In this document: positions 34,317 to 59,480 of the stretch, piece after piece
Numbering within the stretch: position 1 is the first letter of the stretch
Layout of the letters: every line of letters starts with the position of its first letter
NCBI GenBank assembly: GCA_014377455.1
Contig: JACMPO010000021.1
Span: forward strand, 1,903-65,902
Direction: 5' to 3'
Source: Flavobacterium sp.
GTDB lineage: Bacteria > Bacteroidota > Bacteroidia > Flavobacteriales > Flavobacteriaceae
Length of the DNA: 64,000 nt
Notes under the pieces: model-generated
What the model was told of the DNA's origin: nothing
The model's input: only the letters and a program-made list of their open reading frames with translations
Databases searched by the model: none
Made by a program: the position numbers and the translations under genes

Positions 34317-35186
34317 ATGAAACACACTTTAAAAAGTTTTATATTTAAAAGTTTAGCCACATTGCCAGATTTTTTAGGGGATTCTATTTATCATATTATC
34401 CAAGAAAAATTCAATAGTTCCTCCACAGAATCAAAAATTGAAAAATCTGAAAATACAATTAACAAGGTTATTTCTATTTGTGGGGAACTAAACATAAATT
34501 TAAAAAACATTGAGATTATTGAGATAGGTTCGGGTTGGTTTCCTATTATTCCATATTTTTTTATCTATAAATGCAAAGTAAAAAAAGTATTTACTTACGA
34601 TATAAATGCACATTATAACAAAAAAGCTATTGGAATATTTAATGGCATATTTTCTAAAATTTATAATGAAACAATAATAACATCAACCAATAATAATTAT
34701 AATTTACCAGATCAAGTATCTTATTTTCCGTCTCATAACGTCATAAATTGTGAACTTCCTAAAACACCATTAGTTTTTTCTAGATATGTTTTATCTCATG
34801 TGAAAACAAAAGATATAATAGAAATGCATAAAAAGTTTAAAAACGAATTTGCGAAAGGAACTTATATAATACATTTTATATCGCCAAGTGATTTACGACA
34901 ACATGGAGACAAATCAATATCGCAACAAGATTTTTTGAAATACAGCCAAAAAGAATGGGACAAAATAACTACAAAGTATGATTTTCACAATCGCCTGAGA
35001 TTGCCTCAATTTATAGAAATTTTTACTAGTTTGGGTTATGAAATCCTACATAAATCTTATGAAAGAGTATCTGAAAATTCATCAAATTATAATTTATTTC
35101 ACCAATTGCAATTTCACGAAGATTATAAAAAATACTCTGTAGAAGAGTTAACTGCGGGAAATATTATTTTAGTTTTAAAATCATAA
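34317..35186 (+). CDS. Class I SAM-dependent methyltransferase
   Basis: IIEIGSGW SAM motif; FSRYVLSH; HFISPSD; NRLR. The only + strand gene inside the ABC cluster. Confidence 0.75.
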   Translation: MKHTLKSFIFKSLATLPDFLGDSIYHIIQEKFNSSSTESKIEKSENTINKVISICGELNINLKNIEIIEIGSGWFPIIPYFFIYKCKVKKVFTYDINAHYNKKAIGIFNGIFSKIYNETIITSTNNNYNLPDQVSYFPSHNVINCELPKTPLVFSRYVLSHVKTKDIIEMHKKFKNEFAKGTYIIHFISPSDLRQHGDKSISQQDFLKYSQKEWDKITTKYDFHNRLRLPQFIEIFTSLGYEILHKSYERVSENSSNYNLFHQLQFHEDYKKYSVEELTAGNIILVLKS

Positions 35187-36740
35187 ATTGTTTGATTTTA
35201 AGTTTAATTTGTTCGCCCAAAAGACACTATTATTCCATTGTTTTTTAAAAACTTTATAATATTTAACAGGATTTTTAATAGCTTGTTTTTTATAATATTT
35301 AAAAAAGAGTACCGTTTTATAACTTCTTGTTTCTTGTTTAGTGTCGTGTAATATTTTATACAGCATCATTGTTGGCGAAGGTTTTGGTGCAAAAACATCA
35401 GTGTCCCAATCAAATTTAAATTGAGTTCTAAAACCACCAATGGGAGCTTTAAGATGTAAAATCATCGGTTTTGGAAAAAAAATAATATCGTGTCCTGAAT
35501 TTCTTATTTTTCTCCCAAAATCAGCATCCTCGCCAAATCCAAACTCAAAACCAATATTAAATCTTATATTATAAATAATTTCAGAAAGCACAAAACTACA
35601 GCCACTTCCAAATGTTTCCCACTGACTTGGATTTACATTAGGTATTTTTTCATTTGTTTTTAAACAAGATAAAGTTGTGGCTTTTGCATTGTATTGAATA
35701 ACATTTTGAAGACAGTTTTCTAAAAAATTACTTTCAAATCGAATATCATCATCAGCTAAAAAAACCCATTTACTTTTTATTTCATTAAGTCCAAGATTTC
35801 GAGCATTACAAACACCGAGCGTATTAGTAAAAATAGGATTAATTGTGAATGGCCAGATTTCATTTTTTAAATAATCTAATTCAGTAACCGAATTCAAAGC
35901 ACCATTTTGCTCAATAATTATTACATTTTTTGGCAATACAGTCTGATTTTTCAAGTCTAACAAAACGTCATATAAATATTTTTTCCTTCCTATTGTAGGA
36001 ATTAAAACATCTATGGTATTACTATTTAAATCAATATTTGAATTAATTAAATTTAATTTTGAAGGAACATAAGCAGAAATTGAATTTTTTTTATAAAATA
36101 ATGAAAATAAGAATGGGAAAATTGGATAACGTTTTTCGTAAACAATAAAATTAATCAATACTAATAAAACCCATCTGCTTTTGCAATGTTGTTTGATGAA
36201 TTTGAAAATAGTAAAGGTAGAAGCCGTTGGAACTATTGTAGTTTTTAATTCGTCTTTTTTAAGAAGTAATTTTGGCTCAGAATAACAAAAGAGTCCCAAA
36301 TGAATGTAAATTTTTGCCAGTGATGTTAAATAATAATCAAAATCTTTACAATTTTTAATTTCATCTTTTAATTCTAAAAAAACTGAAGCATGGGCATATC
36401 CAACACAACTACTCATTTGCCAAGTAGTATAAGTAACTGTTTTTAATATGTTTACAAATGGACTGGTTTCAAAATATCCTACCGAATGAGTAAGATAATT
36501 ATCGTTACTAGGATTAAAACTTACCAAACTATTGTTGGTTAAATTTGAAGAAGAAATTTCATCTACATTTAAATGATGTTCTAATGTTTCATGGCACCAA
36601 ACTATCTTTTGATCGGGATACTCAAATGCTAATTTCTGCATTACTTCAATAATATTTTTAAGAGAATTAAAAGGAATTATAATGTTATTTGTAGAAACAA
36701 CTTTACAAACATTGATAGTATTATGATAAACTAAAATCAT
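35181..36740 (-). CDS. Glycosyltransferase family 2 with extra N-terminal domain
   Basis: DVLIPTIGR; IIIEQ; CNARN.G; FLADDD; FGFGEDADFG. Confidence 0.88.
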   Translation of the reverse strand: MILVYHNTINVCKVVSTNNIIIPFNSLKNIIEVMQKLAFEYPDQKIVWCHETLEHHLNVDEISSSNLTNNSLVSFNPSNDNYLTHSVGYFETSPFVNILKTVTYTTWQMSSCVGYAHASVFLELKDEIKNCKDFDYYLTSLAKIYIHLGLFCYSEPKLLLKKDELKTTIVPTASTFTIFKFIKQHCKSRWVLLVLINFIVYEKRYPIFPFLFSLFYKKNSISAYVPSKLNLINSNIDLNSNTIDVLIPTIGRKKYLYDVLLDLKNQTVLPKNVIIIEQNGALNSVTELDYLKNEIWPFTINPIFTNTLGVCNARNLGLNEIKSKWVFLADDDIRFESNFLENCLQNVIQYNAKATTLSCLKTNEKIPNVNPSQWETFGSGCSFVLSEIIYNIRFNIGFEFGFGEDADFGRKIRNSGHDIIFFPKPMILHLKAPIGGFRTQFKFDWDTDVFAPKPSPTMMLYKILHDTKQETRSYKTVLFFKYYKKQAIKNPVKYYKVFKKQWNNSVFWANKLNLKSNNL

Positions 36741-37879
36741 TTTTTATCTAAAATTGATTTGTAAAATTCTAAGTTTTGGTTTGCAATTTGAACAATATCA
36801 AAAGTAGTTTCAACACGTTTTCTTGCCTCAGTACCTATGGAATTTGTCAAATTTCTGTCATTTAACAAATTAATGATTTTGTTTGCAAACTCTGTATGAT
36901 TTTTGGGGTGTACTAAATAGCCACTTTTGGAATCTTCAATTAGTTCATTTGCCCATCCAATATTGCTATTTACAACAGGTTTATTCATTGCCATAGATTC
37001 TATAGTAACCATTCCTAGAGTTTCAGCAAAAGTAGGAAAAATACATACGTGCGCTTTTTTTATCTGTTCTTGGACTTCATGATAGGGAATTTTTCCTAAA
37101 TAAGTTACGTCCATGTTTTTAAATTCTTCTTTTAAAATTTTCCAAGTAGAATTAGAGTTTGTTTGTAAATCAGAGGCATCACTTCCTATTAAAATCAGTT
37201 TTGCATTTGAATGCTGACTTAGTACATTTTTTAAAATAAATGGAAGCTCAAAAACTCCTTTTTTCCGAATTAAAGTCCCTATATATAAAATTTGTCCTTG
37301 GGCATAATCATTCGGATTGGGGTTTAAAAATTTATCCAATTGAAGTCCATAATGAATTGTTTTTATTTCTTTATTTTTAATTTTAAAAAGTTTTTTAGAT
37401 AACTCACCTGCAAAAAAAGTAGGTGCTATGTAGGCTGTTGCTTTACTAATAGCTAATTTTTCAAAAAAATTATTCTTAAATTTTTGTTTGCGATTTTCCA
37501 AATGACAAAAATAAGTATCACTGCCATGAAATCTTATTATTAATGGGATAGTAAAATTCATAACACCACTAAAACCAGTCCAATCTGGAGCTTCTATTAT
37601 GTCAATTTTGTCTTGAACGACTATTTTATTAATATAATTTTGAACTTTTTTATTGTAAAAATACCAAGTCCCAGCAATATAGTTTTGTTGCTTTATAAGA
37701 TGAATGTTAACTTCATTTTCAATAATTATTTCATCTTTTTCTTGACCATATACAAAAACAGAAATTTTGTTTTCAGTCTCCGCTAAAGTATCAACTAAGT
37801 TTTTAATACTCGTTGCAATTCCTGCAGCTGCGGTAACATTTGCATGAGGATATTCTGGTGTTAGGAAAGCGATATGCAT
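36737..37879 (-). CDS. Glycosyltransferase family 4
   Basis: HIAFLTPEYP; FAETLGMVTIESMAM. ATG 37879 preferred. Confidence 0.92.
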   Translation of the reverse strand: MHIAFLTPEYPHANVTAAAGIATSIKNLVDTLAETENKISVFVYGQEKDEIIIENEVNIHLIKQQNYIAGTWYFYNKKVQNYINKIVVQDKIDIIEAPDWTGFSGVMNFTIPLIIRFHGSDTYFCHLENRKQKFKNNFFEKLAISKATAYIAPTFFAGELSKKLFKIKNKEIKTIHYGLQLDKFLNPNPNDYAQGQILYIGTLIRKKGVFELPFILKNVLSQHSNAKLILIGSDASDLQTNSNSTWKILKEEFKNMDVTYLGKIPYHEVQEQIKKAHVCIFPTFAETLGMVTIESMAMNKPVVNSNIGWANELIEDSKSGYLVHPKNHTEFANKIINLLNDRNLTNSIGTEARKRVETTFDIVQIANQNLEFYKSILDKK

Positions 37880-37883
37880 GATT

Positions 37884-39281
37884 TTATTGAGCAATTATTT
37901 TTTGAATTCCATCCCAAATTCGCATGGAAGCATGTTCTGGTGGATGTTGATTGATAACTTTAAACCAATTTTTTGCTTCATCTACAACAGCAGTATTGCT
38001 TTGTAATAAACTTTCAATTTTAGTTGCTATCTCATTTGCATTATTTAACCAAACTACTGCTTCCTTAGTTGGCATCGATCTAAAATGAATATATTTATAA
38101 CACTTATGAATACTCCAAAGTTTATCAATCATTTCAGATTGATTGTAGTTGAAATAAGCACAAGGTTTACCAAACGACACAAAATCAAAAACCATCGATG
38201 AACCTAAATTAACAACCAATTCTGAATGGAATGCGATATTTGATAGCAAAGAAACATCATTTGGCGTTGGCAAAATGGTATCCCAAGCAAAATTTGTATT
38301 TTTCCAATCGGGATCAATAGCAACTATTGTAGAAGCGAATTTATTAAGCACTTTATTATATCGACCTGAAAAATCGACAGGACATTTTCTGAAAATTATG
38401 CCTAAGTTGTGACCCTGTGAATTTAAGGTTGTAATTGCATTGGCAAAATCTTCCAAATACTTTGGATCATCTGGCGAAGTAGTGATATCGTCTCCAGAAA
38501 AACACACATACTTTTTATTCAAATCTAAATTATACTTTTTAAAAAAAACATCTTTTGGAATAATGGTATTAACATCAAAATGATTTTCAAATTGTGGCGT
38601 TCCCGTTATAAAAATTAGATTTTCATTTATATAAGGATAATAATACAGTAGTTGCTTTTTCATTAATTCACTCCAAACAAAATAATAATCGGTCTCGATA
38701 ACCATCGTTGCTTTAGGCAAATTATCCCAAGAAAAAATAAAAGTCGCTGTTGGGATTTCTAAATCTTGTGCTGCGAGTATGGGAGCAATTGCAATTACAG
38801 GTCTCTGATTAGTACAAAAAACTATTGTTGGCTTTTCTGCTTTTAAAGTTTCTTTACAAGTTGTATAATACTGAGTCGTTCGCTCTTGTTTTTTTATACG
38901 ATCTCTAATTTTTTCTAATCCATGCGGCGTAGAATTAAAATAAATTACTAGTTTGGTTAACGTATTTTTGACAAATCCTTTAAAATTTTTGGAAACAAAT
39001 GGGAATCGATAACCATTATACGTTTTATCGTTTTCTTTTTCAATAAATAAATTTAGTTCGATATGCTTTCTAGCATTTTTTAAAACATCTGTAAACCATT
39101 GTGTTTTGGGATTATTGATTTTAATTTCATTAAATCCCAAGGAAGACAGATCAAAAGGAGTACTGTTCCAAAAAACGCTTTTAAAACCTAATTCTTCACC
39201 AATAGGCACAAATTTTGAATAAGCAAAGTTGCGTAATCCAATTCCGTCGGGCAATAAAATAAATATTTTTTTAGTGTTCAT
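37884..39281 (-). CDS. GT-B-like hypothetical glycosyltransferase (candidate nonulosonate transferase)
   Basis: SWDNLP..., YFVWSE, ITGTPQFE, FRKCP, VVNLGSSMVFD. Resembles GT-B/TagF-like folds but has no GT4 or GT2 motif. Confidence 0.55.
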   Translation of the reverse strand: MNTKKIFILLPDGIGLRNFAYSKFVPIGEELGFKSVFWNSTPFDLSSLGFNEIKINNPKTQWFTDVLKNARKHIELNLFIEKENDKTYNGYRFPFVSKNFKGFVKNTLTKLVIYFNSTPHGLEKIRDRIKKQERTTQYYTTCKETLKAEKPTIVFCTNQRPVIAIAPILAAQDLEIPTATFIFSWDNLPKATMVIETDYYFVWSELMKKQLLYYYPYINENLIFITGTPQFENHFDVNTIIPKDVFFKKYNLDLNKKYVCFSGDDITTSPDDPKYLEDFANAITTLNSQGHNLGIIFRKCPVDFSGRYNKVLNKFASTIVAIDPDWKNTNFAWDTILPTPNDVSLLSNIAFHSELVVNLGSSMVFDFVSFGKPCAYFNYNQSEMIDKLWSIHKCYKYIHFRSMPTKEAVVWLNNANEIATKIESLLQSNTAVVDEAKNWFKVINQHPPEHASMRIWDGIQKIIAQ

Positions 39282-39289
39282 TTTTAAAT

Positions 39290-40135
39290 TTATAAACTTC
39301 CTATACGACCGTGATCGGAAAAATATCTCTTTACAATGAAATCCTTATCCAAAGGTTCTTCTGATAAAAAAGTAATGTCACAAAATTTGTTTTCTTCAAC
39401 TGGATTTAATCGCCAGGGAACAACAGATTTATAATCTAAAACCCAATTATTTTTTTCTAAATCTTTTATCTGTAAATCATTCCATGAAGTAATGTAATCT
39501 ATCCAATTATACCCTATTTCCCACGCTTGATCTTCCAATTCTTTACAATTTTGAAAACTTATGATACGCAAACCTCCTACAATTTCTTGACTTACCGCTG
39601 CTGATTCATCGCGTAAAACAATTCCTTTTAGCGATGGTTGATTAAAATAATGCTTAAGTTCATTATTATCAATTTTATATTTAGGAGTTAATTTTATTTC
39701 TATTTTACTACATACAGCATCAAAACTTTTATCATTACAATTTGGATTTATTTTTACATACCGAACTAAATCGTGGTATCTAATCCATCTCATATTTCGG
39801 TACAATCCTAAACCAGCTTCGTTTGCAGCGGTAGCGCCAAGTGGGAAATAGTTTCGTGCTAAAGCATATAATCTTGACAATATGCCTTTGCCTCTGCATT
39901 CTTCAGTTAAATATACATTGATAATCCAAGCAATTCCTCCCTGAAAATTTGCTCCAACATGCCCAACGATTTCTTCATTTTCGTTTAAACTTATAAATGA
40001 TCTGCCAAATTTTGCATCTCCATACTGCCATTCCCAAAAAACTTGAGAATGCAATGGATGATTGTTACGGTAAATAATCTTGAAAAAAGTTTCTAATTTG
40101 CTCCAGTCAGCAATTGTTGCTTCGCGTGTTATCAT
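39290..40135 (-). CDS. GNAT family N-acetyltransferase
   Basis: FWEWQY; IVGHVG; INVYL.EECRGKGI (acetyl-CoA loop); ANEAGLGLY. Confidence 0.75.
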   Translation of the reverse strand: MITREATIADWSKLETFFKIIYRNNHPLHSQVFWEWQYGDAKFGRSFISLNENEEIVGHVGANFQGGIAWIINVYLTEECRGKGILSRLYALARNYFPLGATAANEAGLGLYRNMRWIRYHDLVRYVKINPNCNDKSFDAVCSKIEIKLTPKYKIDNNELKHYFNQPSLKGIVLRDESAAVSQEIVGGLRIISFQNCKELEDQAWEIGYNWIDYITSWNDLQIKDLEKNNWVLDYKSVVPWRLNPVEENKFCDITFLSEEPLDKDFIVKRYFSDHGRIGSL

Positions 40136-41046
40136 CCTTTATAGTTTTTTCCGCCTACTAAATCATTACAATCAAATCGCTTTAATTCCAATAAATTTTC
40201 GGAACCAGTATTATCACCAACTTTAGTTGTAAATCCTAATTTATAACCACTTTTTACTGCCAATTCGGCAACTAATGGAGTTACTGCTTTTTCTGTTCCG
40301 TAGGGATAAGAGACGTTATGAATCTTTGAATTTGTCAAATTTTCAAAATAATTTTTAGAATTTGTTAATTCAAATAAAATCTCAGTTTCGTTTAGCGTTC
40401 CTAGTGGAAAATGACTGTGATTGTGACTTCCTAAATAATTTTTAGAAGCTAAATACTTCAAATCGCTTTGAGACATGTAGAGCTCATTCAAAACTTGTTG
40501 TTCATCAAAGTGATTGTTAAATAATGTATTTATAACTAATTCTTGTTGTTCCAAATTCAGTTTAAAATTTAATATATATTTCAATAAACCGTCTTCTTTA
40601 GTATCAAATCTACACGTTGCAAGCGCATTATTTCTATCATTTTTATCAGATTGAATTGAAAATTCATTTTGAATCGATTTCAGAATAATATTGGAATCAA
40701 TTATCGAGCTAATAAGGTGAATTTTGTGAACTGTACTGACTTTTTTTTGCTCAAAATTAATAGAATTTGCAAAAAACAAAGCTGGAATTTGGAGTTCGTC
40801 TAGGATTGGTAAAGCTAAATCAATTTGTTCTTTTAATCCATCGTCAAAATTTATTAAATAGTAATTTTCTTTAGATTCTAAGATACTTTGCGTATTTTCA
40901 CTTACATCGTGGATTGAAATTAAAATTCCCATTTTTTTAAAAAGGAGTAACTGCTTTTTAAAATTAGCTGGAGTAATCCCAAAGATACTTGGAAATTTAG
41001 AATCAAAATTTGTCCTGATATAATGATAATTACTAACCGTAAGCAT
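40132..41046 (-). CDS. Polysaccharide deacetylase (CE4/NodB)
   Basis: NYHYIR; INFDDGL; LGSHNHSH; SYPYG; RFDCND. Confidence 0.88.
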   Translation of the reverse strand: MLTVSNYHYIRTNFDSKFPSIFGITPANFKKQLLLFKKMGILISIHDVSENTQSILESKENYYLINFDDGLKEQIDLALPILDELQIPALFFANSINFEQKKVSTVHKIHLISSIIDSNIILKSIQNEFSIQSDKNDRNNALATCRFDTKEDGLLKYILNFKLNLEQQELVINTLFNNHFDEQQVLNELYMSQSDLKYLASKNYLGSHNHSHFPLGTLNETEILFELTNSKNYFENLTNSKIHNVSYPYGTEKAVTPLVAELAVKSGYKLGFTTKVGDNTGSENLLELKRFDCNDLVGGKNYKG

Positions 41047-41137
41047 TTGCTACTTATTAAATGTCAAATATCAATGTTTATTTTTGAAGTAAAAAATTAT
41101 GAAACAATTATAACATCAACTTTAAACTAATTTAATT

Positions 41138-42262
41138 TTAATCCAATCCTAAAAACTGTTTTTGATGATTAATTTCCCACAAATTTGCATCCAATAATGT
41201 TTCTAAAAAAAGTGACGCACTATTACCCGAACCAAAATCAGTATCGGTTTTTTGCACTTGATGATTCGTAATATTTTGTAAGGCTTTTGCAATTTCTTCA
41301 TTGCTGTAATCCACATTAATTATATCTGCATGAACTGCTCTATTGAGTTGTCGGGTTCCGATGTTAATGATAGGAATTCCATAATAAGGTGCTTCTCGAA
41401 TGCCAGCGCTACTATTACCAATTATAAATTGAGCATTTTTAAGTAAAGTTAAAAAATATTCAAATCGCAAGGATGGAAAAATTCTAAATCGAGTATTATT
41501 TTTTAATTTTTGATAACTATCTATAATATATTTACTCCCCAAATCGTTATTTGGATAAATCACAATGTAGTTTTTATTATCACTAAGCAACGCTTCAACA
41601 AAATTTGTTGTGTATTGCTTCATTTCATTAACCTCAGTAGTTACGGGATGAAACATCACAATACCAAACTTGTCAAAATCTATTTGGTAGTACTTTTTTA
41701 CAGTTTCTAAAGTGGGTAAAACATTAGAAAACATGATGTCAATATCTGGCGAACCTATTGTAAATATTGTTGATTCCATTTCACCCATTTGCAATAAACG
41801 CTTTCCAGCTTCTTTATTGGAAACAAAATGAATATGACTCAGCTTAGAAACGCTATGACGAATTAACTCATCGACTGTGCCCGAAATTTCGCCACCTTCG
41901 ATATGAGCAACCAAAATATTATTTAACGATCCTACAATTGCTCCAGCTAAAGTTTCAACTCGATCACCGTGAACTACAATTAAATCTGGAGAAATGGTTT
42001 TACAATAACTCGAAAAACCTTCAATGGTTTTTGCTAACGTTAAATCCATAGTAGTTTCGTGAGTATGATTTTCAAACGTATGTACGTTTTTAAATTTACA
42101 ATTTTCTATTTCAATTACAGTATAACCGTACTCTTTTTGAAGATGCATTCCAGTAACGAAAACAAAAACTTCAAAATTTTTGTGCGTATCTAAAACTGAA
42201 ATTAACGATTTTATTTTCCCAAAATCGGCTCGAGTTCCTGTAAGGAAAAGAATTTTTTTCAT
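41138..42262 (-). CDS. neuC: Hydrolysing UDP-GlcNAc 2-epimerase
   Basis: TGTRADFGK, VTGMH, HGDRVE, HIEGGE.SGT.DE..RH, GNSSAG, IG.RQ. Confidence 0.95.
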   Translation of the reverse strand: MKKILFLTGTRADFGKIKSLISVLDTHKNFEVFVFVTGMHLQKEYGYTVIEIENCKFKNVHTFENHTHETTMDLTLAKTIEGFSSYCKTISPDLIVVHGDRVETLAGAIVGSLNNILVAHIEGGEISGTVDELIRHSVSKLSHIHFVSNKEAGKRLLQMGEMESTIFTIGSPDIDIMFSNVLPTLETVKKYYQIDFDKFGIVMFHPVTTEVNEMKQYTTNFVEALLSDNKNYIVIYPNNDLGSKYIIDSYQKLKNNTRFRIFPSLRFEYFLTLLKNAQFIIGNSSAGIREAPYYGIPIINIGTRQLNRAVHADIINVDYSNEEIAKALQNITNHQVQKTDTDFGSGNSASLFLETLLDANLWEINHQKQFLGLD

Positions 42263-42264
42263 TT

Positions 42265-42924
42265 CTACTTTACGATATAGGAAATTGCGTGAGAAAAAGG
42301 CAACTTTTTTATGGATGCTTTATTATTAAAAAAATCATCAACCGCTTTGTTAGTTCCTGCAAAAGCGCCATAATCGTCAAAAATTATGATACCACCAGTT
42401 GTAACTTTATCATATAATTTTTCTAAAATAAGTTTTGAAGGTTCGTATAAATCTACATCAATATGTAAAAGTGAAATTTTTAAATGCGGATTTTTTTCTA
42501 AATAATCATTCAAAGTCACCAGAATATCACCTTTTATAATGTCAACATTTTTATTTAAACCTTGTGCTTCTAAAAGTTCATTAATCTCTGAATAGGAAAT
42601 ACTTTTTCCACCATTTGTTTCAGTAACAAATGCATCTCTTTTATCTTTATCTTGTTCAAAATTTGCCTCTGGAAAATCTCCAAATATGTCAAAACCAATT
42701 ACTTTTCGACTGTTAGTTTGCTCCAATAAATCTCTAAATTTGATCCATCTGAAAAAGGAATTTCCTTTAAATATACCAAACTCAACAATTTCGCCACGAA
42801 CAGTTGCTGTTTGCTTAAAAAATTCCAAATGAGTTATAAATTTACTAAAACGCGATGGATCTGCTGTTGCATAAAATCCGTTTTCATACTCAAATTTTTT
42901 ATTTAGGTCATATAATTTTTCCAT
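42265..42924 (-). CDS. TylF/MycF/NovP-family O-methyltransferase
   Basis: GEIVEFGIFKG; ISLLHIDVDLYEP; GGIIIFDDY. Confidence 0.85.
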   Translation of the reverse strand: MEKLYDLNKKFEYENGFYATADPSRFSKFITHLEFFKQTATVRGEIVEFGIFKGNSFFRWIKFRDLLEQTNSRKVIGFDIFGDFPEANFEQDKDKRDAFVTETNGGKSISYSEINELLEAQGLNKNVDIIKGDILVTLNDYLEKNPHLKISLLHIDVDLYEPSKLILEKLYDKVTTGGIIIFDDYGAFAGTNKAVDDFFNNKASIKKLPFSHAISYIVK

Positions 42925-42926
42925 AT

Positions 42927-43973
42927 TTATGCGTTTTTAAAGTCTGTAAAATCTAATTGTTCATCATTAGCTATAGCTCGAGTCGTTACTTTCCCCAATA
43001 AAGTGTTGTAATGTTCCGCCAGTATTTTTCCTGTTCCAGGACGTTTGACCCAAATATTTTCTTTGGTCAAAATTTCTCCTACTTTAATTTCTTTTATGGA
43101 ACAAACTGTTGCAAAAGCAAAATCAATAGTAACTTGCTCTTCTTGAGCTGGTTCTTTAATTCCGCCGCGCATTTGCCAAATTTCATTAGAAGATATTATA
43201 AGGTCACTACACGCTTTTTCATCCATACTACACACTATATCTGGTCCAGTTCGATGCAATGTATCTGTAAAATGACGCTCTAAAATACTTGCGCCTAAAG
43301 CCACAGCACCTAAACAAGCATTGTTATTTAAAGTATGGTCAGATAGTCCAAAAACAGTATTTGGAAAAGCTTTGTGCAACTGCATCATTGCGCCAAAACG
43401 TACCAAGTGTATTGGTGTAGGATATAAGTTTGTTGTGTGCAAAAGTGCAAAAGGAATGTTGTTTTTTTTGAAAATGGCAACTGCTTTTTGAACACTCTCA
43501 ATAGTATTCATTCCGGTGCTTAAAATTATAGGTTTTCCAAAACTGCAAATATGTTCTAATAAAGGATAATTGTTGCATTCGCCAGAACCAATTTTATAGG
43601 CGGGAATATCAAAATTTTTCAATCTATCGGCAGCAGCCCTCGAAAAAGGCGTTGAAATAAATATCATTCCCAAACTTTCAACATAATTTTTAAGCTCCAG
43701 TTCCTCACTTTCGTTTAACGAACACCGTTCCATTATTTCGTAAATAGATACTGTAGCATTTCCTGGAATAACTTTCTTTGCTGCGCCACTCATTTCATCT
43801 GCAACAATATGGGTTTGATGTTTTACAACCTCAACACCAGCTCGTTTTGCGACATCTACCATTTGCTTTGCAACCTGCAAAGAACCTTCATGGTTAATTC
43901 CAATTTCAGCTATAACAAGAGGTGGAAAATCGGCTCCTATTTTTCGCCCAGCAATTTCTATATATGGATTCAT
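42927..43973 (-). CDS. neuB: N-acetylneuraminate synthase with C-terminal SAF/antifreeze-like domain
   Basis: [43 protein letters not shown]; VKRPG.G in SAF domain. Confidence 0.96.
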
Positions 43974-43981
43974 GTTTTGAT

Positions 43982-44650
43982 TTAAAGTGTTGTTATATTT
44001 TTTTGATATAGATAATTTGCATAATCTAAATCTTCCTGAGTATCAATATCAACCGTTGCAAAAATATGATTTAATCTGTAGGGAAATGATTTTTCTGAAA
44101 TAAGATTTCCCTTCATTATTGCTTCTGATTTAGCAATATAAATTAATCCGTTTTCATAATAAAGTGGTTTCAAGTCTTGACTTCGCTGTCCAATTTTATA
44201 ATTGCTTGGCACAAAAATATTGTTTTTGATTGTTCCAAGTTTATGATGATTTCTAGAAACTGTAAACAAACTTTCACAATTGAATTCTGAAAAAATTTCA
44301 AAACAATCACTTAATAAAGCATCAGGTCTTAAAGGATTTGTGGCTTGAAGTAGTACAACATTTTCTACTTTATGATTTATAGATTGCAAAACATGTTGTA
44401 CCGCCGTAATCGTGGGTTCTAAATCGCCAGAAATTGCACTTGGCCTATCAATTACAATTGCACCATATTCTGTAGCAATTTTTTTAATTTCTGAATCGTC
44501 TGTTGAAACGTAAACGGCATCAATACAATTTGAATTTGCTTTTGCATATAATATACTATGCACCAGAAGTGGCATGTTACCTAATGGCAAACAATTTTTA
44601 TTAACTAATCTTTTAGAACCGCCGCGTGCAGGAATTACAGCAATTGTCAT
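43982..44650 (-). CDS. neuA: CMP-nonulosonate (CMP-Neu5Ac) synthetase
   Basis: [13 protein letters not shown]; VSTD; LLQATNPLR; YYENG..Y; DIDT.ED. Confidence 0.93.
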
Positions 44651-45744
44651 GATAAATTAAATTTAGCATTTTCAATAATTACATTCATTCCTTGACACCA
44701 ACTTTGAGTCGAATATAAATTTTTTGGAACTTCAAAAAGTGTTGTATTGTTGCTTAGATAATCTTCAATAGCATCACTCCACGATTGAATAAAATGAGGA
44801 TTTTCAATTAATTTTCCCAACTTTCCATACTGCAAAACTTCGGGAACACCTCCAATTGCTGATGCAATGCAATAATTGCCACAATGCAAAGCCTCAATTA
44901 ATGACAATCCAAAACCTTCGTGCCATAAAACTGGGAAAAGATAAACATCTGAAATCTGAAAATATTTTGGCAAATCATCGTTTGGGATTTTTCCTAAATA
45001 ATGAACTCCTTCACTTGTTGCTTTTTTCTCAGCACCAATAACTAAAAGTTCACAATCACTATGTTGTAGATAAATTCGTTTCCAAGCATCTAAAATAAGA
45101 TTTAATCCTTTTTTGGGTCGATCCTGTGAACACCACACAAATATTTTTTTAGCCTTAAATCCTAATTCTGATTTTAATTTCTGTTTTTCTGATTCTGAAA
45201 TTTTAAAAAATTTATTGGTATCAATACCGTTGTGCAAAACTGAAAATCTACAAGGTAAAATAGTATAATAATTCTTATGTGCAAGATACGAATCGTTTGT
45301 TAAAACAATCATTTCATCGACAGCTTCATAAAAAAACCGTCCATGAAAATTTTCATGAAAAGGAGTGAAACCGTGATAAAAAAATTGCAAATAACACCGT
45401 TTTCGTAAATTAAACTTTATAAGAAAATTGTTCAAAGGCTCTACTAATCCGTGATTATCTATTACTTGAATTATGAATTTTTCTTCACTATTCTCAACAA
45501 GTATTTTTTTTAATTCATTTAAATAAATGACATACTTATTTTTTGAAACTCTTTTTTCTATTTTCAACTTAAAAGTTGATTTCACAATGCCATATTTAAC
45601 ATTATCAAAATAATATTCAGGCTGTTTACAAATTAAAAAGTCTATTTTATGATTGGATGCAAAATAATTTTTATAAAGCGTTGTCCAACTTCCTATATGG
45701 GAATAAGGCAGAGGCACTTGTGAAATTAAAATTACTTTTGACAT
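44647..45744 (-). CDS. Glycosyltransferase family 4
   Basis: LHNGID; WHEGFGLSLIEAL...GGVPE. Confidence 0.9.
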   Translation of the reverse strand: MSKVILISQVPLPYSHIGSWTTLYKNYFASNHKIDFLICKQPEYYFDNVKYGIVKSTFKLKIEKRVSKNKYVIYLNELKKILVENSEEKFIIQVIDNHGLVEPLNNFLIKFNLRKRCYLQFFYHGFTPFHENFHGRFFYEAVDEMIVLTNDSYLAHKNYYTILPCRFSVLHNGIDTNKFFKISESEKQKLKSELGFKAKKIFVWCSQDRPKKGLNLILDAWKRIYLQHSDCELLVIGAEKKATSEGVHYLGKIPNDDLPKYFQISDVYLFPVLWHEGFGLSLIEALHCGNYCIASAIGGVPEVLQYGKLGKLIENPHFIQSWSDAIEDYLSNNTTLFEVPKNLYSTQSWCQGMNVIIENAKFNLS

Positions 45745-50732: not shown

Positions 50733-51263
50733 TTAGATTCTGTTTTTCAATATTTGTGCTGGAATTCCACCTACAATTGTATTTGTTGCTACATTTTTTG
50801 TTACAACTGCCCCCGCGGCAATTATTGCACCTGACTCAATTGTAACACCATCAAGTATTTTACACCCGGAACCAATCCAAACATTATCTTTAATGGTAAT
50901 GCCTTTTCTACTTTCTCCTTGCGCATTTATAGGTATTTCTAGTTTTGAAAAATTATGATTTGCTGGAATAATCATAGTGTGTCCGGCAATTAAAACATTA
51001 TTACCAATTGTCAAACCTCCATGTCCATATAAAATTGTGTAAGGATTAATGGAACAGTTTTTTCCAATTTTAATTTTTCCGCCATAGGTCATTAAGACAA
51101 CTCCATAAAGTAATTCAGTTTTATTTCCAATTTCAATACTTCCACCACCCGAAGTGTCAAGTAGTACATTTGAATATTTTTTAACGCTATTTGACAAAAA
51201 TATATTTTTGCGTCTGTATAAAATAAATGATATTCTTTTTATAAGTTCAAATACCATTTGCAA
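50733..51263 (-). CDS. Hexapeptide-repeat (LbH) sugar O-acyltransferase
   Basis: IKIGKNCSI; LTIGNNVLIA; HNF; DNVWIGSG; GAIIAAGAVVTK; GGIPA. Confidence 0.9.
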   Translation of the reverse strand: MQMVFELIKRISFILYRRKNIFLSNSVKKYSNVLLDTSGGGSIEIGNKTELLYGVVLMTYGGKIKIGKNCSINPYTILYGHGGLTIGNNVLIAGHTMIIPANHNFSKLEIPINAQGESRKGITIKDNVWIGSGCKILDGVTIESGAIIAAGAVVTKNVATNTIVGGIPAQILKNRI

Positions 51264-52465
51264 TTTATTTTTACATCACCAATTGTGTTACCGTATATTT
51301 TATAATCATTTATTAAATCTACAATTTGAAAAAAACAAACATCGTTAATATATTCAAATACTTGTTCATCCTTAAAAGTTGCAACATCAAGGGTATAAGT
51401 TCCTTTAAGTAACAAATTTCCAGGTATTTCACAATACAGCTTATTAGTTGACAAATTAATTGTATTTACAGTTGTGAAAACTTTTACTTTTGTAGAGTTC
51501 AAAATAGCAACTCCAACATTGCAGTTATTGATTTCATTATAAAATTTAATCTCGACTATTATGTTATCTTCATGATTTATGAAATTTTGAGAGGTTAATA
51601 TTTTTACTGATTCGATTCCATTAATTTTAGATTGAGAAGTATTTACAAAAGACAAGGTTTCATTGTTTTTATTCTCATTTAAATAATTTGACACAGAATC
51701 ATCAATACCTCCACTAAAAATAGTTAAACCATTTTTTAAAACTATTCCTTTATTACACAAACTTTTAACAGCTGCCATATTATGGCTTACAAATAAAACG
51801 GTACGACCTTCACCTTTGCTAATTTCGCCCATTTTCCCGAGACATTTTTTTTGGAATTCAGCATCTCCTACAGCTAAAACCTCATCAACTATTAGGATTT
51901 CACTTTCTAAATGTGCCGCAACTGCAAAAGCTAATCTTACATACATTCCAGACGAATATCGTTTCACAGGAGTATCGATGTAACGTTCAACTCCAGAAAA
52001 AGCAATGATTTCATCTAGTTTTCTAGTTATTTCTTTTTTTCGCATTCCAAGGATTGCACCGTTTAAGTAAATATTTTCTCTTCCAGAAAGTTCAGGATGA
52101 AAGCCTGTACCTACTTCCAGCAAACTTGCTATCCGACCTTTAACTTTAATTTCACCAGTTGTTGGACCTGTAACTCTAGAAAGTAATTTTAAAAGGGTAC
52201 TTTTTCCTGCACCGTTTTTGCCAATTATTCCTAGTGAATCTCCTTGATTAACTTCAAAATTAATGTCTTTTAATGACCATACAATATCACTTTCGCCTTT
52301 TGTACTGCGATCATTAGATTCTCCAATTTTTAAAAAAGGATCTTCTTTACCCAATATTCTTGTTTGCCAAAATCTGTCGACATCTCGGGACAAAGTTCCA
52401 GAACCAATCTGACCAATTTGGTATGCTTTTGAAACATTTTCGACTAGTATAGCTGTTTTACTCAT
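51239..52465 (-). CDS. wzt: Polysaccharide ABC transporter ATPase with C-terminal Wzt_C domain
   Basis: GKNGAGKST; YSSGMYVRLAF; ILIVDE; VSH; extra ~150-aa beta-rich C-terminus. Confidence 0.93.
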   Translation of the reverse strand: MSKTAILVENVSKAYQIGQIGSGTLSRDVDRFWQTRILGKEDPFLKIGESNDRSTKGESDIVWSLKDINFEVNQGDSLGIIGKNGAGKSTLLKLLSRVTGPTTGEIKVKGRIASLLEVGTGFHPELSGRENIYLNGAILGMRKKEITRKLDEIIAFSGVERYIDTPVKRYSSGMYVRLAFAVAAHLESEILIVDEVLAVGDAEFQKKCLGKMGEISKGEGRTVLFVSHNMAAVKSLCNKGIVLKNGLTIFSGGIDDSVSNYLNENKNNETLSFVNTSQSKINGIESVKILTSQNFINHEDNIIVEIKFYNEINNCNVGVAILNSTKVKVFTTVNTINLSTNKLYCEIPGNLLLKGTYTLDVATFKDEQVFEYINDVCFFQIVDLINDYKIYGNTIGDVKINCKWYLNL

Positions 52466-53334
52466 TATATGGTATCGACAAAGTTTTTCTCAGTTTTATT
52501 ATAAATAATAATTCCTATAAATAATATTATAACAGTAACCAAAGTTGAATAACCTAAAGTACCAGCAGAAAAATCTCCTTTCCCGAGGAATGCATACCGA
52601 AATGCTTCAATAATTCCAGACATAGGGTTTAATTCAACAAATTTACCATACCCTTTTTCGCGAACATAACTTAAAGGGTAAATTATGGGAGTTGCATACA
52701 TTAAAAGTTGTACTCCAAATGTTACTAAAAAAGTTAAATCTCTGTATTTTGTGGTCATAGCGGTTATTATTAATCCCAAACCCAAACCCAAAAGTGCCAT
52801 TAATACCACTAAAAATGGAAATAAAAATAAACCATACGTAACGTGGAAACTAGTTCTAGCAATTGGAAAAAAATAAAAATAAACCATCATTGTTATGAGT
52901 AATGATAATTGCACTCCAAAACGAACTAAGTTACTCACCACAATACTTAGTGGCATAATTAATCGAGGGAAATATACTTTCCCAAAAATATTAGCGTTAT
53001 CTCTAAAAACGGTGCTAGTTTTGGACAAACAATCTGAAAAATAATTCCAAGATGTAATTCCTGTTAAGTAAAAAAGATATTTTGGTAAACCATCAGTACT
53101 TATTCCGGCTAAGTTGCCAAAAACAAATGAAAAAACAATAGTTGTAAATATAGGCTGGATAAAAAACCATACAGGTCCGAGAATGGTCTGTTTATAAAAA
53201 CTTACAAAATCACGCCTTACAAATAAAATTAATAAATCTCTATATTGCCAAACATCTTTAAAATTTAAATCTAACAATGAGGTTTGTCCTTTAATTATTA
53301 AATCCCAATCGTTTGATTCGTAGCTGTTTTTCAT
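52465..53334 (-). CDS. wzm: Polysaccharide ABC-2 permease
   Basis: YKQTILGP.W; IFGKVYFPR; KYRD; YATPIIYP; LNPM...EAFR. Confidence 0.93.
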   Translation of the reverse strand: MKNSYESNDWDLIIKGQTSLLDLNFKDVWQYRDLLILFVRRDFVSFYKQTILGPVWFFIQPIFTTIVFSFVFGNLAGISTDGLPKYLFYLTGITSWNYFSDCLSKTSTVFRDNANIFGKVYFPRLIMPLSIVVSNLVRFGVQLSLLITMMVYFYFFPIARTSFHVTYGLFLFPFLVVLMALLGLGLGLIITAMTTKYRDLTFLVTFGVQLLMYATPIIYPLSYVREKGYGKFVELNPMSGIIEAFRYAFLGKGDFSAGTLGYSTLVTVIILFIGIIIYNKTEKNFVDTI

Positions 53335-53393
53335 TGTAAAATTAAATTATACTAATCAGTATTTACTTGGATTTATTGGAATTTTAATGGAAA

Positions 53394-53401
53394 CAAATAT
53401 A
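53394..53401 (-). promoter_or_regulatory. -7 element TATATTTG for the wzm-wzt-GT operon
   Basis: CAAATATA on + strand in the divergent wzm/phosphatase gap. Confidence 0.6.
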
Positions 53402-53478
53402 GTAATTTACTATAATTATAATAATGAATTAAGCAGTTTTAATAAATATTTGTTTCTTTGTAAAAAATTACAAAAACT

Positions 53479-56600: not shown

Positions 56601-56601
56601 T

Positions 56602-59426: not shown

Positions 59427-59480
59427 TTTTAATTTAATTAATTAAGTAAAGTTAGTTTAAAAAAAGTTGTTAAAAAAAGC

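What the first reader, a model, noticed from the sequence alone, without database searches (positions are those of the whole stretch)
37884..44650. Complete sialic-acid pathway with no recognisable sialyltransferase: orphan gene 37884-39281 as a candidate new transferase family
Seen: neuA, neuB and neuC are intact. NeuB carries [12 protein letters not shown]...[15 protein letters not shown] and NeuC carries TGTRADFGK, which from recall match the Neisseria SiaC/SiaA (true Neu5Ac) clade rather than Leg/Pse synthases. Every other GT in the window reads as GT2, GT4 or GT47-like. Known: characterised bacterial CMP-Neu5Ac transferases fall in GT38/42/52/80/97/100, and I see none of their motifs here. 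Inference: the unassigned 465-aa GT-B-like protein downstream of the neu block, or the GT4 that overlaps neuA, transfers Neu5Ac. That would give a sialylated surface glycan built by an undescribed enzyme.
Basis: partly seen in the sequence, partly recalled or inferred. Interest (0 to 1): 0.72.

Follow-up and report, generated by a model that had tools for sequence, protein, structure and literature searches.

The report
Likely TagB-like sialic acid transferase
A glacier Flavobacterium carries an intact pathway for true sialic acid, and the unnamed gene beside it is most likely the enzyme that attaches the sugar to a surface glycan; that enzyme type lies outside the classical sialyltransferase families and has so far only been shown genetically in the oral bacterium Tannerella forsythia.

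Summary
neuA, neuB and neuC are intact at the stated coordinates. NeuB is 61% identical to the Neisseria meningitidis Neu5Ac synthase. None of the 40 window ORFs scanned matches a classical sialyltransferase family in Pfam.

The 465-aa orphan (37884-39281, minus strand) folds with high confidence as a GT-B enzyme carrying a variable helical insert. No solved structure is close to it.

It is not a wholly undescribed kind of enzyme:
- 70 of 85 diverse family members hit the NCBIfam model for the BFO_1060 family, always below its cut-off. That family holds the T. forsythia pseudaminic/legionaminic acid transferases, which were proven by knockout.
- The family is homologous over its full length to TagB/TagF-like (PF04464) proteins.

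Gene context supports a role in nonulosonic acid (NulO) transfer:
- 63 of 67 close loci carry neuABC upstream of the orphan homologue.
- 21 of 24 loci found through NeuB carry a family member downstream. One exception has a GT38-like sialyltransferase instead.
- Distant loci show matched copy numbers of family paralogue, NeuB and cytidylyltransferase (3:3:3 and 2:2:2).

Caveats:
- Nothing here is biochemical.
- The orphan is linked even more tightly to the downstream GT4 (67 of 67 loci).
- A few homologues have no nearby neu genes.
- B. subtilis SpsB is a negative precedent.

Verdict: a probable CMP-Neu5Ac transferase (confidence about 0.6), and a new variant of a known kind.

The parts
37884..39281 (-). 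Orphan 465-aa GT-B protein, the proposed CMP-Neu5Ac (NulO) transferase. It is TagB/TagF-like and a remote relative of the BFO_1060 family. Invariant residues are S184-W185-D186, W203, G227/P229/Q230, R298 (with P301 nearly invariant) and S361. A variable helical insert spans residues 62-149.
   Evidence: It has no Pfam hit and only weak NCBIfam hits: NF046086 at 34 bits against a cut-off of 200, and PRK13609. The AF2 model has pLDDT 96.3 and pTM 0.93 and is GT-B. Foldseek finds only generic GT-B matches, with TMq <=0.57. Conservation comes, the NF046086 link, the PF04464 link, and gene context.
36737..37894 (-). GT4 glycosyltransferase overlapping the 3' end of the orphan. It is the orphan's constant partner gene and probably makes or extends the acceptor.
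   Evidence: It matches PF00534 and PF13439. A homologue lies downstream of the orphan homologue in 67 of 67 loci with >=8 kb of downstream sequence. A GT4 also follows distant family members in L084-L087.
39290..40135 (-). GNAT acetyltransferase, an accessory gene present in some strains only. It may re-acylate the sugar.
   Evidence: It matches PF00583. It is found in only 4 of 82 related loci, in the same position in L002.
40132..41046 (-). Polysaccharide deacetylase family protein, an accessory gene paired with the GNAT.
   Evidence: It matches PF01522. It is found in 7 of 82 related loci and also near NulO genes in L168 and L173.
41138..42262 (-). NeuC, the hydrolysing UDP-GlcNAc 2-epimerase that makes ManNAc.
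   Evidence: It scores 423 bits on TIGR03568 against a cut-off of 236, and matches PF02350. The TGTRADFGK motif is present.
42265..42924 (-). TylF-like O-methyltransferase inserted between neuB and neuC. It may methylate the sialic acid or the glycan.
   Evidence: It scores 77 bits on PF05711. A homologue is present in only 1 of 82 related loci.
42927..43973 (-). NeuB, the Neu5Ac synthase (ManNAc + PEP).
   Evidence: It is 61% identical to N. meningitidis NeuB/SiaC (1xuu) at 447 bits. It scores 389.7 on TIGR03569 and only 211 on PseI.
43982..44650 (-). NeuA, the CMP-Neu5Ac synthetase (short form, 222 aa).
   Evidence: It matches PF02348. Its best solved-structure relatives are CMP-Neu5Ac synthetases 6ifd, 9ftb and 1eyr.
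44647..45744 (-). GT4 glycosyltransferase overlapping neuA by 4 nt.
   Evidence: It matches PF00534. It is present in only 24 of 67 loci that have >=8 kb upstream of the orphan homologue.
51239..53334 (-). Wzm permease (52465-53334) and Wzt ATPase (51239-52465). Wzt carries a Wzt_C carbohydrate-binding domain. Together they form the ABC-transporter export route for the glycan.
   Evidence: They match PF01061, PF00005 and PF14524, and NF050108/NF050109. The same Wzt_C transporters lie beside neu genes in L091 and L171.

Best explanation
The block 37884-44650 is one operon-like module inside a large polysaccharide locus that uses an ABC transporter for export.

- NeuC, NeuB and NeuA make CMP-Neu5Ac from UDP-GlcNAc. 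This rests on sequence alone but is strongly supported.
- The 465-aa orphan is a soluble or peripheral GT-B enzyme of the TagB/TagF-like superfamily, whose characterised members all use cytidine-linked donors and release CMP. I infer that it binds CMP-Neu5Ac in the conserved inter-domain cleft and transfers Neu5Ac to a lipid-linked glycan at the cytoplasmic face of the membrane. The cleft is lined by S184-W185-D186-N187, G227-T-P-Q230, R298-x-x-P301, N358-x-G-S361, D366, K372 and H399.
- The acceptor is probably made or extended by the invariably adjacent GT4 (36737-37894). The finished glycan is then exported by Wzm/Wzt.
- The poorly conserved, basic helical insert (residues 62-149) is proposed to set acceptor or membrane specificity.
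- The TylF-like methyltransferase and the deacetylase/GNAT pair are accessories found in some strains only, and may modify the sialic acid.

The fold, the homology and the gene context are shown here. The donor, the acceptor, the catalytic residues and the presence of sialic acid on the cell are inferred.
For: 1. The pathway is genuine. NeuB is 61% identical to N. meningitidis NeuB, NeuC passes TIGR03568, and NeuA's best relatives are CMP-Neu5Ac synthetases.
2. No classical sialyltransferase Pfam family is found in the 40 window ORFs scanned.
3. The orphan is a confident GT-B fold (pLDDT 96.3).
4. It is related to proven NulO transferases. 70 of 85 diverse members hit NF046086 (the BFO_1060 family). 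The best hit is 73 bits over profile positions 105-364 of 365. BFO_1060 is the orthologue of Tanf_01245 and TFUB4_00887, whose knockouts lose Pse or Leg from the O-glycan. Those enzymes also sit just downstream of CMP-NulO genes (PMC5420450).
5. hhalign gives probability 100% and E=1e-46 over 441 columns against PF04464-bearing relatives, with the same signature motifs.
6. Context in close relatives: 63 of 67 loci with >=8 kb upstream carry neuA, neuB and neuC on the same strand.
7. Reciprocal test: 21 of 24 NeuB-seeded metagenome loci with >=8 kb downstream carry a family member at 27-61% identity, while NeuB stays at 82-89%.
8. One exception, L106, has a PF07388 (GT38-like) sialyltransferase instead.
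9. Context in distant relatives (28-33% identity): 7 of 8 informative loci carry NeuB and/or CTP_transf_3. Copy numbers of family paralogue, NeuB and cytidylyltransferase match, at 3:3:3 in L083 and 2:2:2 in L173.
10. CMP-Neu5Ac is the only CMP- or CDP-activated donor whose synthesis genes are visible in the locus.
Against: - There is no biochemical or genetic evidence for this family.
- The orphan reaches only 34 bits on NF046086 against a cut-off of 200, so it is not a member of the proven family.
- The D/E-D/E-G and HP motifs of GT-B sialyltransferases are not conserved.
- Foldseek ranks UDP-GlcNAc 2-epimerases and GT4 enzymes first. No sialyltransferase or TagF appears in the top 50.
- The orphan is linked more tightly to the downstream GT4 (67 of 67 loci) than to the neu genes (63 of 67). 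It stays intact in loci with no neu genes (L071, L075, L085), with neuC only (L003), or with neuB reduced to a remnant (L028).
- Synteny among congeneric genomes is partly inherited and so not fully independent evidence.
- B. subtilis SpsB is also TagB-like and sits beside CMP-Leg genes, yet it was not required for Leg transfer (PMC7439481).
- A sialyltransferase could be encoded elsewhere in the genome.
Confidence: 0.6

Rival explanations
1. The orphan and the downstream GT4 form a conserved two-enzyme module. This module builds part of the glycan backbone or adaptor from an ordinary donor (a UDP- or GDP-sugar, or a CDP-polyol). Neu5Ac is added by another enzyme, either elsewhere in the genome or by one of the many GT2/GT4 proteins in the locus.
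For: - The GT4 is adjacent in 67 of 67 loci, more constant than the neu genes.
- The pair persists where neu genes are absent or decayed (L071, L075, L085, L028).
- NCBI names the homologues 'UDP-glycosyltransferase'.
- The orphan has weak hits to a GT28-type diglucosyl-DAG synthase.
- Foldseek's best matches are UDP-dependent GT-B proteins.
- B. subtilis SpsB is a precedent for a TagB-like gene beside NulO genes that is not the NulO transferase.
Against: - Copy numbers of family paralogue, NeuB and cytidylyltransferase match in unrelated loci, at 3:3:3 and 2:2:2.
- 21 of 24 NeuB-seeded loci have a member even when it has diverged to 27-39% identity.
- L106 has a GT38-like sialyltransferase in place of a family member.
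- The family's only curated relatives use CMP-leaving-group donors.
- The locus has no CDP-polyol synthesis gene.
Confidence: 0.22
2. A GT4 enzyme is the sialyltransferase. It is either the one overlapping neuA (44647-45744) or the one overlapping the orphan (36737-37894). The orphan does something else.
For: - Both GT4 genes are translationally coupled to pathway genes.
- The downstream GT4 always co-occurs with the orphan.
Against: - Both match the ordinary GT4 models PF00534 and PF13439, and NDP-sugar-dependent equivalogs.
- From general knowledge of CAZy GT4, this is a retaining family that uses NDP-sugars, and no CMP-NulO-dependent GT4 is known to me.
- The neuA-overlapping GT4 is present in only 24 of 67 neu-bearing loci.
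Confidence: 0.05
3. The orphan is not a transferase. It is either a GT-B-fold enzyme that modifies a nucleotide-sugar (epimerase- or hydrolase-like), or a non-catalytic partner that presents the acceptor to the adjacent GT4, like GtfB with GtfA.
For: - The top Foldseek hits are UDP-GlcNAc 2-epimerases.
- It pairs invariably with a GT4.
Against: - It has no PF02350 hit, and identity to epimerases is only 9-15% at TMq about 0.55.
- A set of invariant polar cleft residues (D186, Q230, R298, S361; H399 is nearly invariant, >=90%) is kept across members only 21-59% identical to the window protein, and across the PF04464-bearing branch. That pattern argues for catalysis.
- NeuC already supplies the epimerase step.
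Confidence: 0.05

Closest known systems
Tannerella forsythia Pse/Leg-derivative transferases Tanf_01245, TFUB4_00887 and BFO_1060 (NCBIfam NF046086; PMC5420450)
   Same: - Same phylum, Bacteroidota.
- About 445-465 aa, soluble, GT-B/TagB-like.
- Encoded just downstream of a CMP-nonulosonic acid biosynthesis block.
- 70 of 85 members of the orphan family hit the family model, up to 73 bits over 260 positions.
   Different: - The orphan scores 34 bits against a cut-off of 200, so it is outside the family proper.
- The predicted donor is Neu5Ac, not Pse or Leg.
- The glycan is exported by Wzm/Wzt, not by the protein O-glycosylation route.
- The D/E-D/E-G and HP motifs reported for the Tannerella enzymes are not conserved here.
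- I could not obtain a Tannerella sequence for direct alignment.
TagB/TagF/TarF/TarL CDP-glycerol or CDP-ribitol phosphotransferases (Pfam PF04464, Glyphos_transf)
   Same: - GT-B-like two-domain fold, with a donor that leaves as CMP.
- Relatives of the orphan carry PF04464 and hit TarF and TarL weakly.
- The orphan family aligns with them at hhalign probability 100% over 441 columns.
   Different: - The window protein itself has no PF04464 hit at E<=0.01.
- The locus has no CDP-glycerol or CDP-ribitol synthesis gene.
- The predicted reaction is glycosyl transfer, not polyol-phosphate transfer.
Classical bacterial GT-B sialyltransferases (CAZy GT38 NeuS/SiaD, GT52 Lst/NST, GT80 PmST1)
   Same: - GT-B fold, the proposed CMP-Neu5Ac donor, and a position beside neuABC.
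- A GT38-like gene occupies the equivalent role in locus L106, which lacks an orphan homologue.
   Different: - No hit to their Pfam models.
- Their D/E-D/E-G and HP motifs are not conserved. An invariant Arg (R298-x-x-P301) sits where I would expect a phosphate-binding residue, by inference only.
- None of them appears in the Foldseek top 50.
Bacillus subtilis SpsB (TagB-domain protein in the sps legionaminic acid operon; PMC7439481)
   Same: A TagB-like protein encoded beside a CMP-NulO pathway and proposed on the same grounds to be the NulO transferase.
   Different: Deleting spsB did not reduce surface Leg, so SpsB is a negative precedent. Its relatedness to the orphan was not measured here.

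Membership tests
BFO_1060 family glycosyltransferase (NCBIfam NF046086; T. forsythia NulO transferases) | Whole-protein score at or above the curated cut-off (200 bits) | tested here: not met
   The orphan scores 34.1 bits (E=1.6e-8) over residues 197-279 only. The best family member, P0264, scores 73.3 bits. None of the members whose scores were displayed individually reaches 200: the window protein and 20 relatives. The best E-value among all 85 scanned, 1.9e-20, is P0264's.
BFO_1060 family glycosyltransferase (NCBIfam NF046086; T. forsythia NulO transferases) | GT-B/TagB-like two-domain protein of about 445 aa with no transmembrane segment | tested here: met
   The AF2 model is GT-B with pLDDT 96.3. 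The protein is 465 aa, and a Kyte-Doolittle scan finds no hydrophobic 19-mer. It is homologous to PF04464-bearing proteins.
BFO_1060 family glycosyltransferase (NCBIfam NF046086; T. forsythia NulO transferases) | Gene lies just downstream of the CMP-NulO biosynthesis genes | tested here: met
   This holds in the window, in 63 of 67 close loci, and in 7 of 8 informative distant loci.
BFO_1060 family glycosyltransferase (NCBIfam NF046086; T. forsythia NulO transferases) | Knockout loses the terminal NulO from the glycan and complementation restores it | not testable with these tools
   This was shown only for Tanf_01245 and TFUB4_00887 (PMC5420450).
Bacterial GT-B sialyltransferases (GT38/GT52/GT80) | Match to the family sequence models (PF07388, PF07922, PF11477). 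GT42 (PF06002) was also considered. | tested here: not met
   The Pfam-A scan of the orphan returned no family at E<=0.01. The same scan method does detect PF07388 in L106.
Bacterial GT-B sialyltransferases (GT38/GT52/GT80) | Conserved D/E-D/E-G and HP motifs (Freiberger et al. 2007, as cited in PMC5420450) | tested here: not met
   Neither motif is among the invariant or >=90% conserved columns of the 85-sequence alignment. The only HP in the window protein lies in the variable C-terminal tail.
Bacterial GT-B sialyltransferases (GT38/GT52/GT80) | Transfers Neu5Ac from CMP-Neu5Ac | not testable with these tools
   This needs an enzyme assay.
CAZy GT97 / GT100 sialyltransferases | Sequence membership | not tested
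   No model or reference sequence for these families was available in the tools used.
TagB/TagF CDP-glycerol glycerophosphotransferases (PF04464) | Match to PF04464 above the gathering score | tested here: not met
   The window protein has no hit at E<=0.01. Some homologues carry precomputed PF04464 hits. The link is at superfamily level only.
TagB/TagF CDP-glycerol glycerophosphotransferases (PF04464) | CDP-glycerol or CDP-ribitol supply gene (TagD/TarI-type) in the same locus | tested here: not met
   None was found among the 30 scanned ORFs of the glycan cluster. The only cytidylyltransferase is the NeuA-type PF02348 protein.
UDP-GlcNAc 2-epimerase (PF02350), the top Foldseek class | Match to PF02350 / TIGR00236 / TIGR03568 | tested here: not met
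   The orphan has no such hit. The structural similarity is generic GT-B, with TMq 0.45-0.57 and 9-15% identity.
N-acetylneuraminate synthase NeuB (TIGR03569), for the gene at 42927-43973 | Equivalog cut-off, and close similarity to a characterised Neu5Ac synthase rather than to PseI | tested here: inconclusive
It scores 389.7 bits against a cut-off of 399.65, a marginal miss. It is nevertheless 61% identical, at 447 bits, to N. meningitidis NeuB, against 126 bits to PseI 8h2c.

The most novel reading that the evidence does not exclude
The orphan would represent a very large, unrecognised class of CMP-nonulosonic acid transferases. The class has 1841 clusters at 50% identity with E<=1e-3, and relatives are encoded at 565 or more places in a collection of one genome per species. 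It is TagB/TagF-like rather than CAZy-sialyltransferase-like, with one paralogue per NulO pathway. This branch would be the first true Neu5Ac transferase of the class. In this locus it would add a possibly O-methylated or re-acylated Neu5Ac as the non-reducing-end cap of an O-polysaccharide made by the ABC-transporter route. The Wzt C-terminal carbohydrate-binding domain would read that cap as the export signal, in parallel to the beta-Kdo cap of Klebsiella O12.
Probability: 0.15. Interest if true: 0.78.

Novelty: new variant of a known kind. Interest (0 to 1): 0.55.

Why it matters
If correct, this has four consequences.

- Many free-living, cold-environment Flavobacterium would decorate a surface polysaccharide with genuine Neu5Ac. 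That sugar is usually discussed as host mimicry by pathogens.
- They would do so with an enzyme type that lies outside the sialyltransferase families used for genome annotation.
- Thousands of database entries now named 'UDP-glycosyltransferase' would carry the wrong donor. Genome screens for bacterial sialylation that look only for GT38/42/52/80 would miss them.
- The family would be a new source of sialyl- and NulO-transferases for chemoenzymatic synthesis.

It would also give the genetically defined Tannerella enzymes a broad evolutionary context and a high-confidence structural model to test.

Tried and rejected
- **Sequence search against solved structures.** Searching PDB sequences with the orphan and with an 85-sequence profile found nothing significant.
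- **Foldseek against PDB.** It returned only generic GT-B matches and could not separate transferase classes. Only the top 50 are listed, so the ranks of TagF and the sialyltransferases are unknown.
- **Direct comparison with T. forsythia.** I tried to reach true BFO_1060 members by searching with the bridging homologue P0264. That gave PF04464-bearing relatives, but none above the NF046086 cut-off. No direct alignment to Tanf_01245 could be made.
- **Genome scan.** A scan with the 85-sequence alignment failed because it has no stretch conserved enough. I repeated it with 27 closer sequences. The 80 loci kept were then all close relatives, so taxonomic breadth came from single look-ups instead.
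- **Legionaminic acid instead of Neu5Ac.** I considered this because PglF/E/D-like genes are in the window. I rejected it on the 61% identity of NeuB to N. meningitidis NeuB. It is not formally excluded, because no LegI reference was available.
- **Other unassigned ORFs as candidates.**
  - The 539-aa ORF (31522-33141) has no Pfam or PDB relative and occurs in only 12 of 82 loci.
  - The 289-aa ORF (34317-35186) has a SAM-methyltransferase-like Gly motif by eye, and occurs in 6 of 82 loci.
- **Expression evidence.** Only glacier-metagenome DNA runs hold this sequence.

Full report
**What is in the sequence**

The interval 37884-44650 holds seven back-to-back ORFs on the minus strand. Profile searches name them as follows.

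| Coordinates | Assignment | Evidence |
|---|---|---|
| 43982-44650 | NeuA | PF02348 |
| 42927-43973 | NeuB | PF03102 + SAF |
| 42265-42924 | TylF-like methyltransferase | PF05711 |
| 41138-42262 | NeuC | TIGR03568, 423 bits against a cut-off of 236 |
| 40132-41046 | polysaccharide deacetylase | PF01522 |
| 39290-40135 | GNAT | PF00583 |
| 37884-39281 | 465-aa orphan | no Pfam family |

- NeuB scores 447 bits and is 61% identical over 342 columns to the crystallised N. meningitidis Neu5Ac synthase. It scores only 126 bits to a PseI structure.
- A published NeuB phylogeny likewise groups Flavobacterium with Neisseria and Campylobacter (PMC8208679).
- NeuA's nearest solved relatives are CMP-Neu5Ac synthetases.

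**The surrounding locus**

The block lies in a roughly 40-kb glycan locus. The locus contains:
- Wzm and Wzt, the latter with a Wzt_C carbohydrate-binding domain
- Wza, and Wzc with its phosphatase
- two initiating phosphoglycosyltransferases
- PglF/E/D-like genes
- a Wzy_C/ligase-like protein
- many GT2 and GT4 genes and one GT47-like gene

None of the 40 ORFs scanned hits a classical sialyltransferase Pfam family. The sequence comes from a glacier metagenome, and no RNA data exist for it.

**What the orphan is**

- *Family size.* The family is large. A search of 1.84 billion cluster representatives found 1841 clusters at E<=1e-3 and 636 at E<=1e-10. A scan of one genome per species found relatives at 565 or more places, which is a lower bound. 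Where sources name the homologues, the usual name is 'UDP-glycosyltransferase'.
- *Fold.* With an 85-sequence alignment AlphaFold gives pLDDT 96.3 and pTM 0.93. The model is a two-Rossmann GT-B fold with a helical insert of about 90 residues in the N-domain.
- *Structural neighbours.* Foldseek against the PDB returns only generic GT-B proteins: UDP-GlcNAc 2-epimerases, BshA and MshA. TMq is at most 0.57 and identity 9-15%. A profile search of PDB sequences finds nothing. No member of this family has a solved structure.
- *Conserved residues.* Invariant residues are S184, W185, D186, W203, G227, P229, Q230, R298 and S361. N187, P301, N358, D366, K372 and H399 are conserved in at least 90% of sequences.
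- *Pattern of conservation.* The cleft-forming segments are the best conserved, at 47% and 38% mean identity to the window protein. The helical insert is the most variable, at 15%.

**Link to known enzymes**

- The only curated models the orphan touches are NF046086, 'BFO_1060 family glycosyltransferase' (34 bits against a cut-off of 200), and a GT28-type synthase.
- The first link holds across the family. 70 of 85 diverse members hit NF046086. P0264 matches it over profile positions 105-364 of 365, at 73 bits.
- BFO_1060 is the strain 92A2 orthologue of Tanf_01245 and TFUB4_00887. These are roughly 445-aa GT-B/TagB-like proteins located just downstream of the CMP-Pse or CMP-Leg genes of Tannerella forsythia. 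Deleting them removes the terminal Pse or Leg derivative from the O-glycan, and complementation restores it (PMC5420450).
- Relatives of P0264 carry Pfam PF04464 (TagB/TagF) and hit TarF and TarL weakly.
- A profile-profile comparison of that group with the orphan family gives probability 100% and E=1e-46 over 441 columns. The same SWD, G-x-P-Q, R-x-x-P and Ser-loop motifs are shared.

The orphan therefore belongs to a TagB/TagF-like superfamily whose characterised members use donors that release CMP. It is not a member of the BFO_1060 family proper. It also lacks the conserved D/E-D/E-G and HP motifs of GT38/52/80 enzymes.

**Gene-context tests**

- *Close relatives (52-62% identity, mostly Flavobacterium).* 63 of 67 loci with at least 8 kb upstream carry neuA, neuB and neuC on the same strand.
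- *The four exceptions.* They keep an intact orphan but have:
  - neuC only (L003)
  - neuA plus a 62-codon remnant of neuB, replaced by a methyltransferase and a GT2 (L028)
  - FkbH, a methyltransferase and a deacetylase instead (L071)
  - none of the three neu genes (L075)

- *Reciprocal test.* Among NeuB-seeded metagenome loci with at least 8 kb downstream, 21 of 24 carry a family member. It is often only 27-39% identical to the orphan, although NeuB stays at 82-89%.
- *The three reciprocal exceptions.* L106 carries a PF07388 (GT38-like) sialyltransferase next to LPS-core-type genes. L091 shows no candidate. In L166 NeuB stands alone.
- *Distant members (28-33% identity).* 7 of 8 informative loci carry NeuB and/or CTP_transf_3 genes.
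- *Matched copy numbers.* L083 has three family paralogues, three NeuB and three cytidylyltransferases. L173 has two of each. L168 has several paralogues with NulO genes.

**What weakens the case**

- The orphan's most constant neighbour is not a neu gene. It is the GT4 that overlaps its 3' end, found in 67 of 67 loci and also next to distant members. The orphan and this GT4 could therefore be a backbone-building pair.
- Homologues persist in a few loci without neu genes.
- Synteny among congeners is partly inherited.
- B. subtilis SpsB, proposed as a Leg transferase on the same grounds, proved dispensable for Leg transfer (PMC7439481).
- I could not obtain a Tannerella sequence for direct alignment.
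- I could not inspect the rest of the genome for a classical sialyltransferase.

**Mechanism proposed**

1. NeuC, NeuB and NeuA make CMP-Neu5Ac.
2. The orphan binds the CMP moiety in its conserved C-domain and cleft. My inference is that R298 and S361 act as phosphate ligands and that D186 or H399 acts as the general base.
3. It transfers Neu5Ac to an undecaprenyl-linked glycan, which the adjacent GT4 makes or extends.
4. The variable basic helical insert would dock the enzyme on the membrane or the acceptor.
5. Wzm/Wzt then exports the polymer.

neu genes and Wzt_C-bearing transporters recur together (the window, L091, L171). The sialic acid could therefore be the chain-terminating cap that the Wzt domain reads. 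This is speculative.

**Verdict**

The orphan is the best candidate, with confidence about 0.6. It is a divergent Neu5Ac-associated branch of a transferase type already defined genetically in Tannerella, not a wholly new family.
- I found no paper describing this Flavobacterium family or sialylated Flavobacterium glycans.
- Novelty: a new variant of a known kind. Interest: moderate to high for glycobiology and genome annotation.

Noticed in passing
window 36737-37894 (and L003-L082, L084-L087): The GT4 overlapping the 3' end of the orphan is its most constant neighbour. It is present in 67 of 67 loci with enough downstream sequence, and a GT4 also follows distant (28-31% identity) family members. 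The two genes look like a fixed two-gene module.
   Followed up: partly
L083 (4508-5914, 7995-9389, 14476-15876) and L173 (5856-7259, 9001-10428): Unrelated metagenomic loci carry three (L083) or two (L173) paralogues of the orphan family. Each has the same number of NeuB-family synthases and CTP_transf_3 cytidylyltransferases. This suggests one transferase per nonulosonic acid pathway.
   Followed up: partly
L106 5548-6579: A neuABC locus with NeuB 86% identical to the window's lacks any orphan homologue. Instead it has a PF07388 (alpha-2,8-polysialyltransferase-like, GT38) gene among LPS-core-type genes: a Kdo/WaaP kinase, a GT9 and a sulfatase-family phosphoethanolamine-transferase-like protein.
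   Followed up: partly
window 42265-42924: A TylF-like O-methyltransferase sits between neuB and neuC. Only 1 of 82 related loci has a homologue, and L001 has an unrelated 214-aa ORF between neuA and neuB. The gaps between neu genes seem to be slots for sialic-acid-modifying genes that differ between strains.
   Followed up: partly
window 39290-41046: A polysaccharide deacetylase and GNAT pair lies between neuC and the orphan. It is present in only 4-7 of 82 related loci (in the same order in L002, L039 and L049). Deacetylases also sit near NulO genes in L168 and L173. The pair may carry out N-deacetylation and re-acylation of the sugar.
   Followed up: no
L028 7189-7374 (Flavobacterium granuli DSM 19729): Only the last ~62 codons of neuB remain and neuC is gone. 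They are replaced by a methyltransferase and a GT2, while neuA, the orphan homologue and the GT4 stay intact. This is a natural partial loss of the pathway that could be used to test dependence.
   Followed up: partly
window 31522-33141: A 539-aa ORF with no Pfam family and no relative among solved structures. A homologue is present in 12 of 82 related loci, including a 539-aa gene in L002. Its function is unknown.
   Followed up: partly
window 34317-35186 (+): This is the only plus-strand ORF found (>=80 aa) between 23199 and 53334 in the otherwise minus-strand glycan cluster. It has no Pfam hit but contains an 'EIGSGWFP' stretch that looks like SAM-methyltransferase motif I. A 289-aa gene sits in the same position in L002.
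   Followed up: no
window 24533-25927, 51239-57369 and 57429-61819: The window combines two export systems, Wzm/Wzt and Wza/Wzc with a CpsB-type phosphatase. It also has two initiating phosphoglycosyltransferases, one WbaP-like and one small PglC-like with PglF/E/D-like genes. Two different glycans may be encoded side by side.
   Followed up: no
L035, L064, L074, L076: Loci with Flavobacterium-type orphan homologues (53-56% identity) come from MAGs labelled Porticoccaceae, Bifidobacterium breve, Candidatus Nitrotoga and Sphingobacterium thalpophilum. At least the first three contigs are probably mis-binned.
   Followed up: no
homologues P0003-P0112: Where sources name the family, the name is mostly 'UDP-glycosyltransferase', occasionally 'GT28' or 'UDP-GlcNAc:LPS GlcNAc transferase'. 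If the donor is a CMP-sugar, these names are wrong across the family.
   Followed up: no
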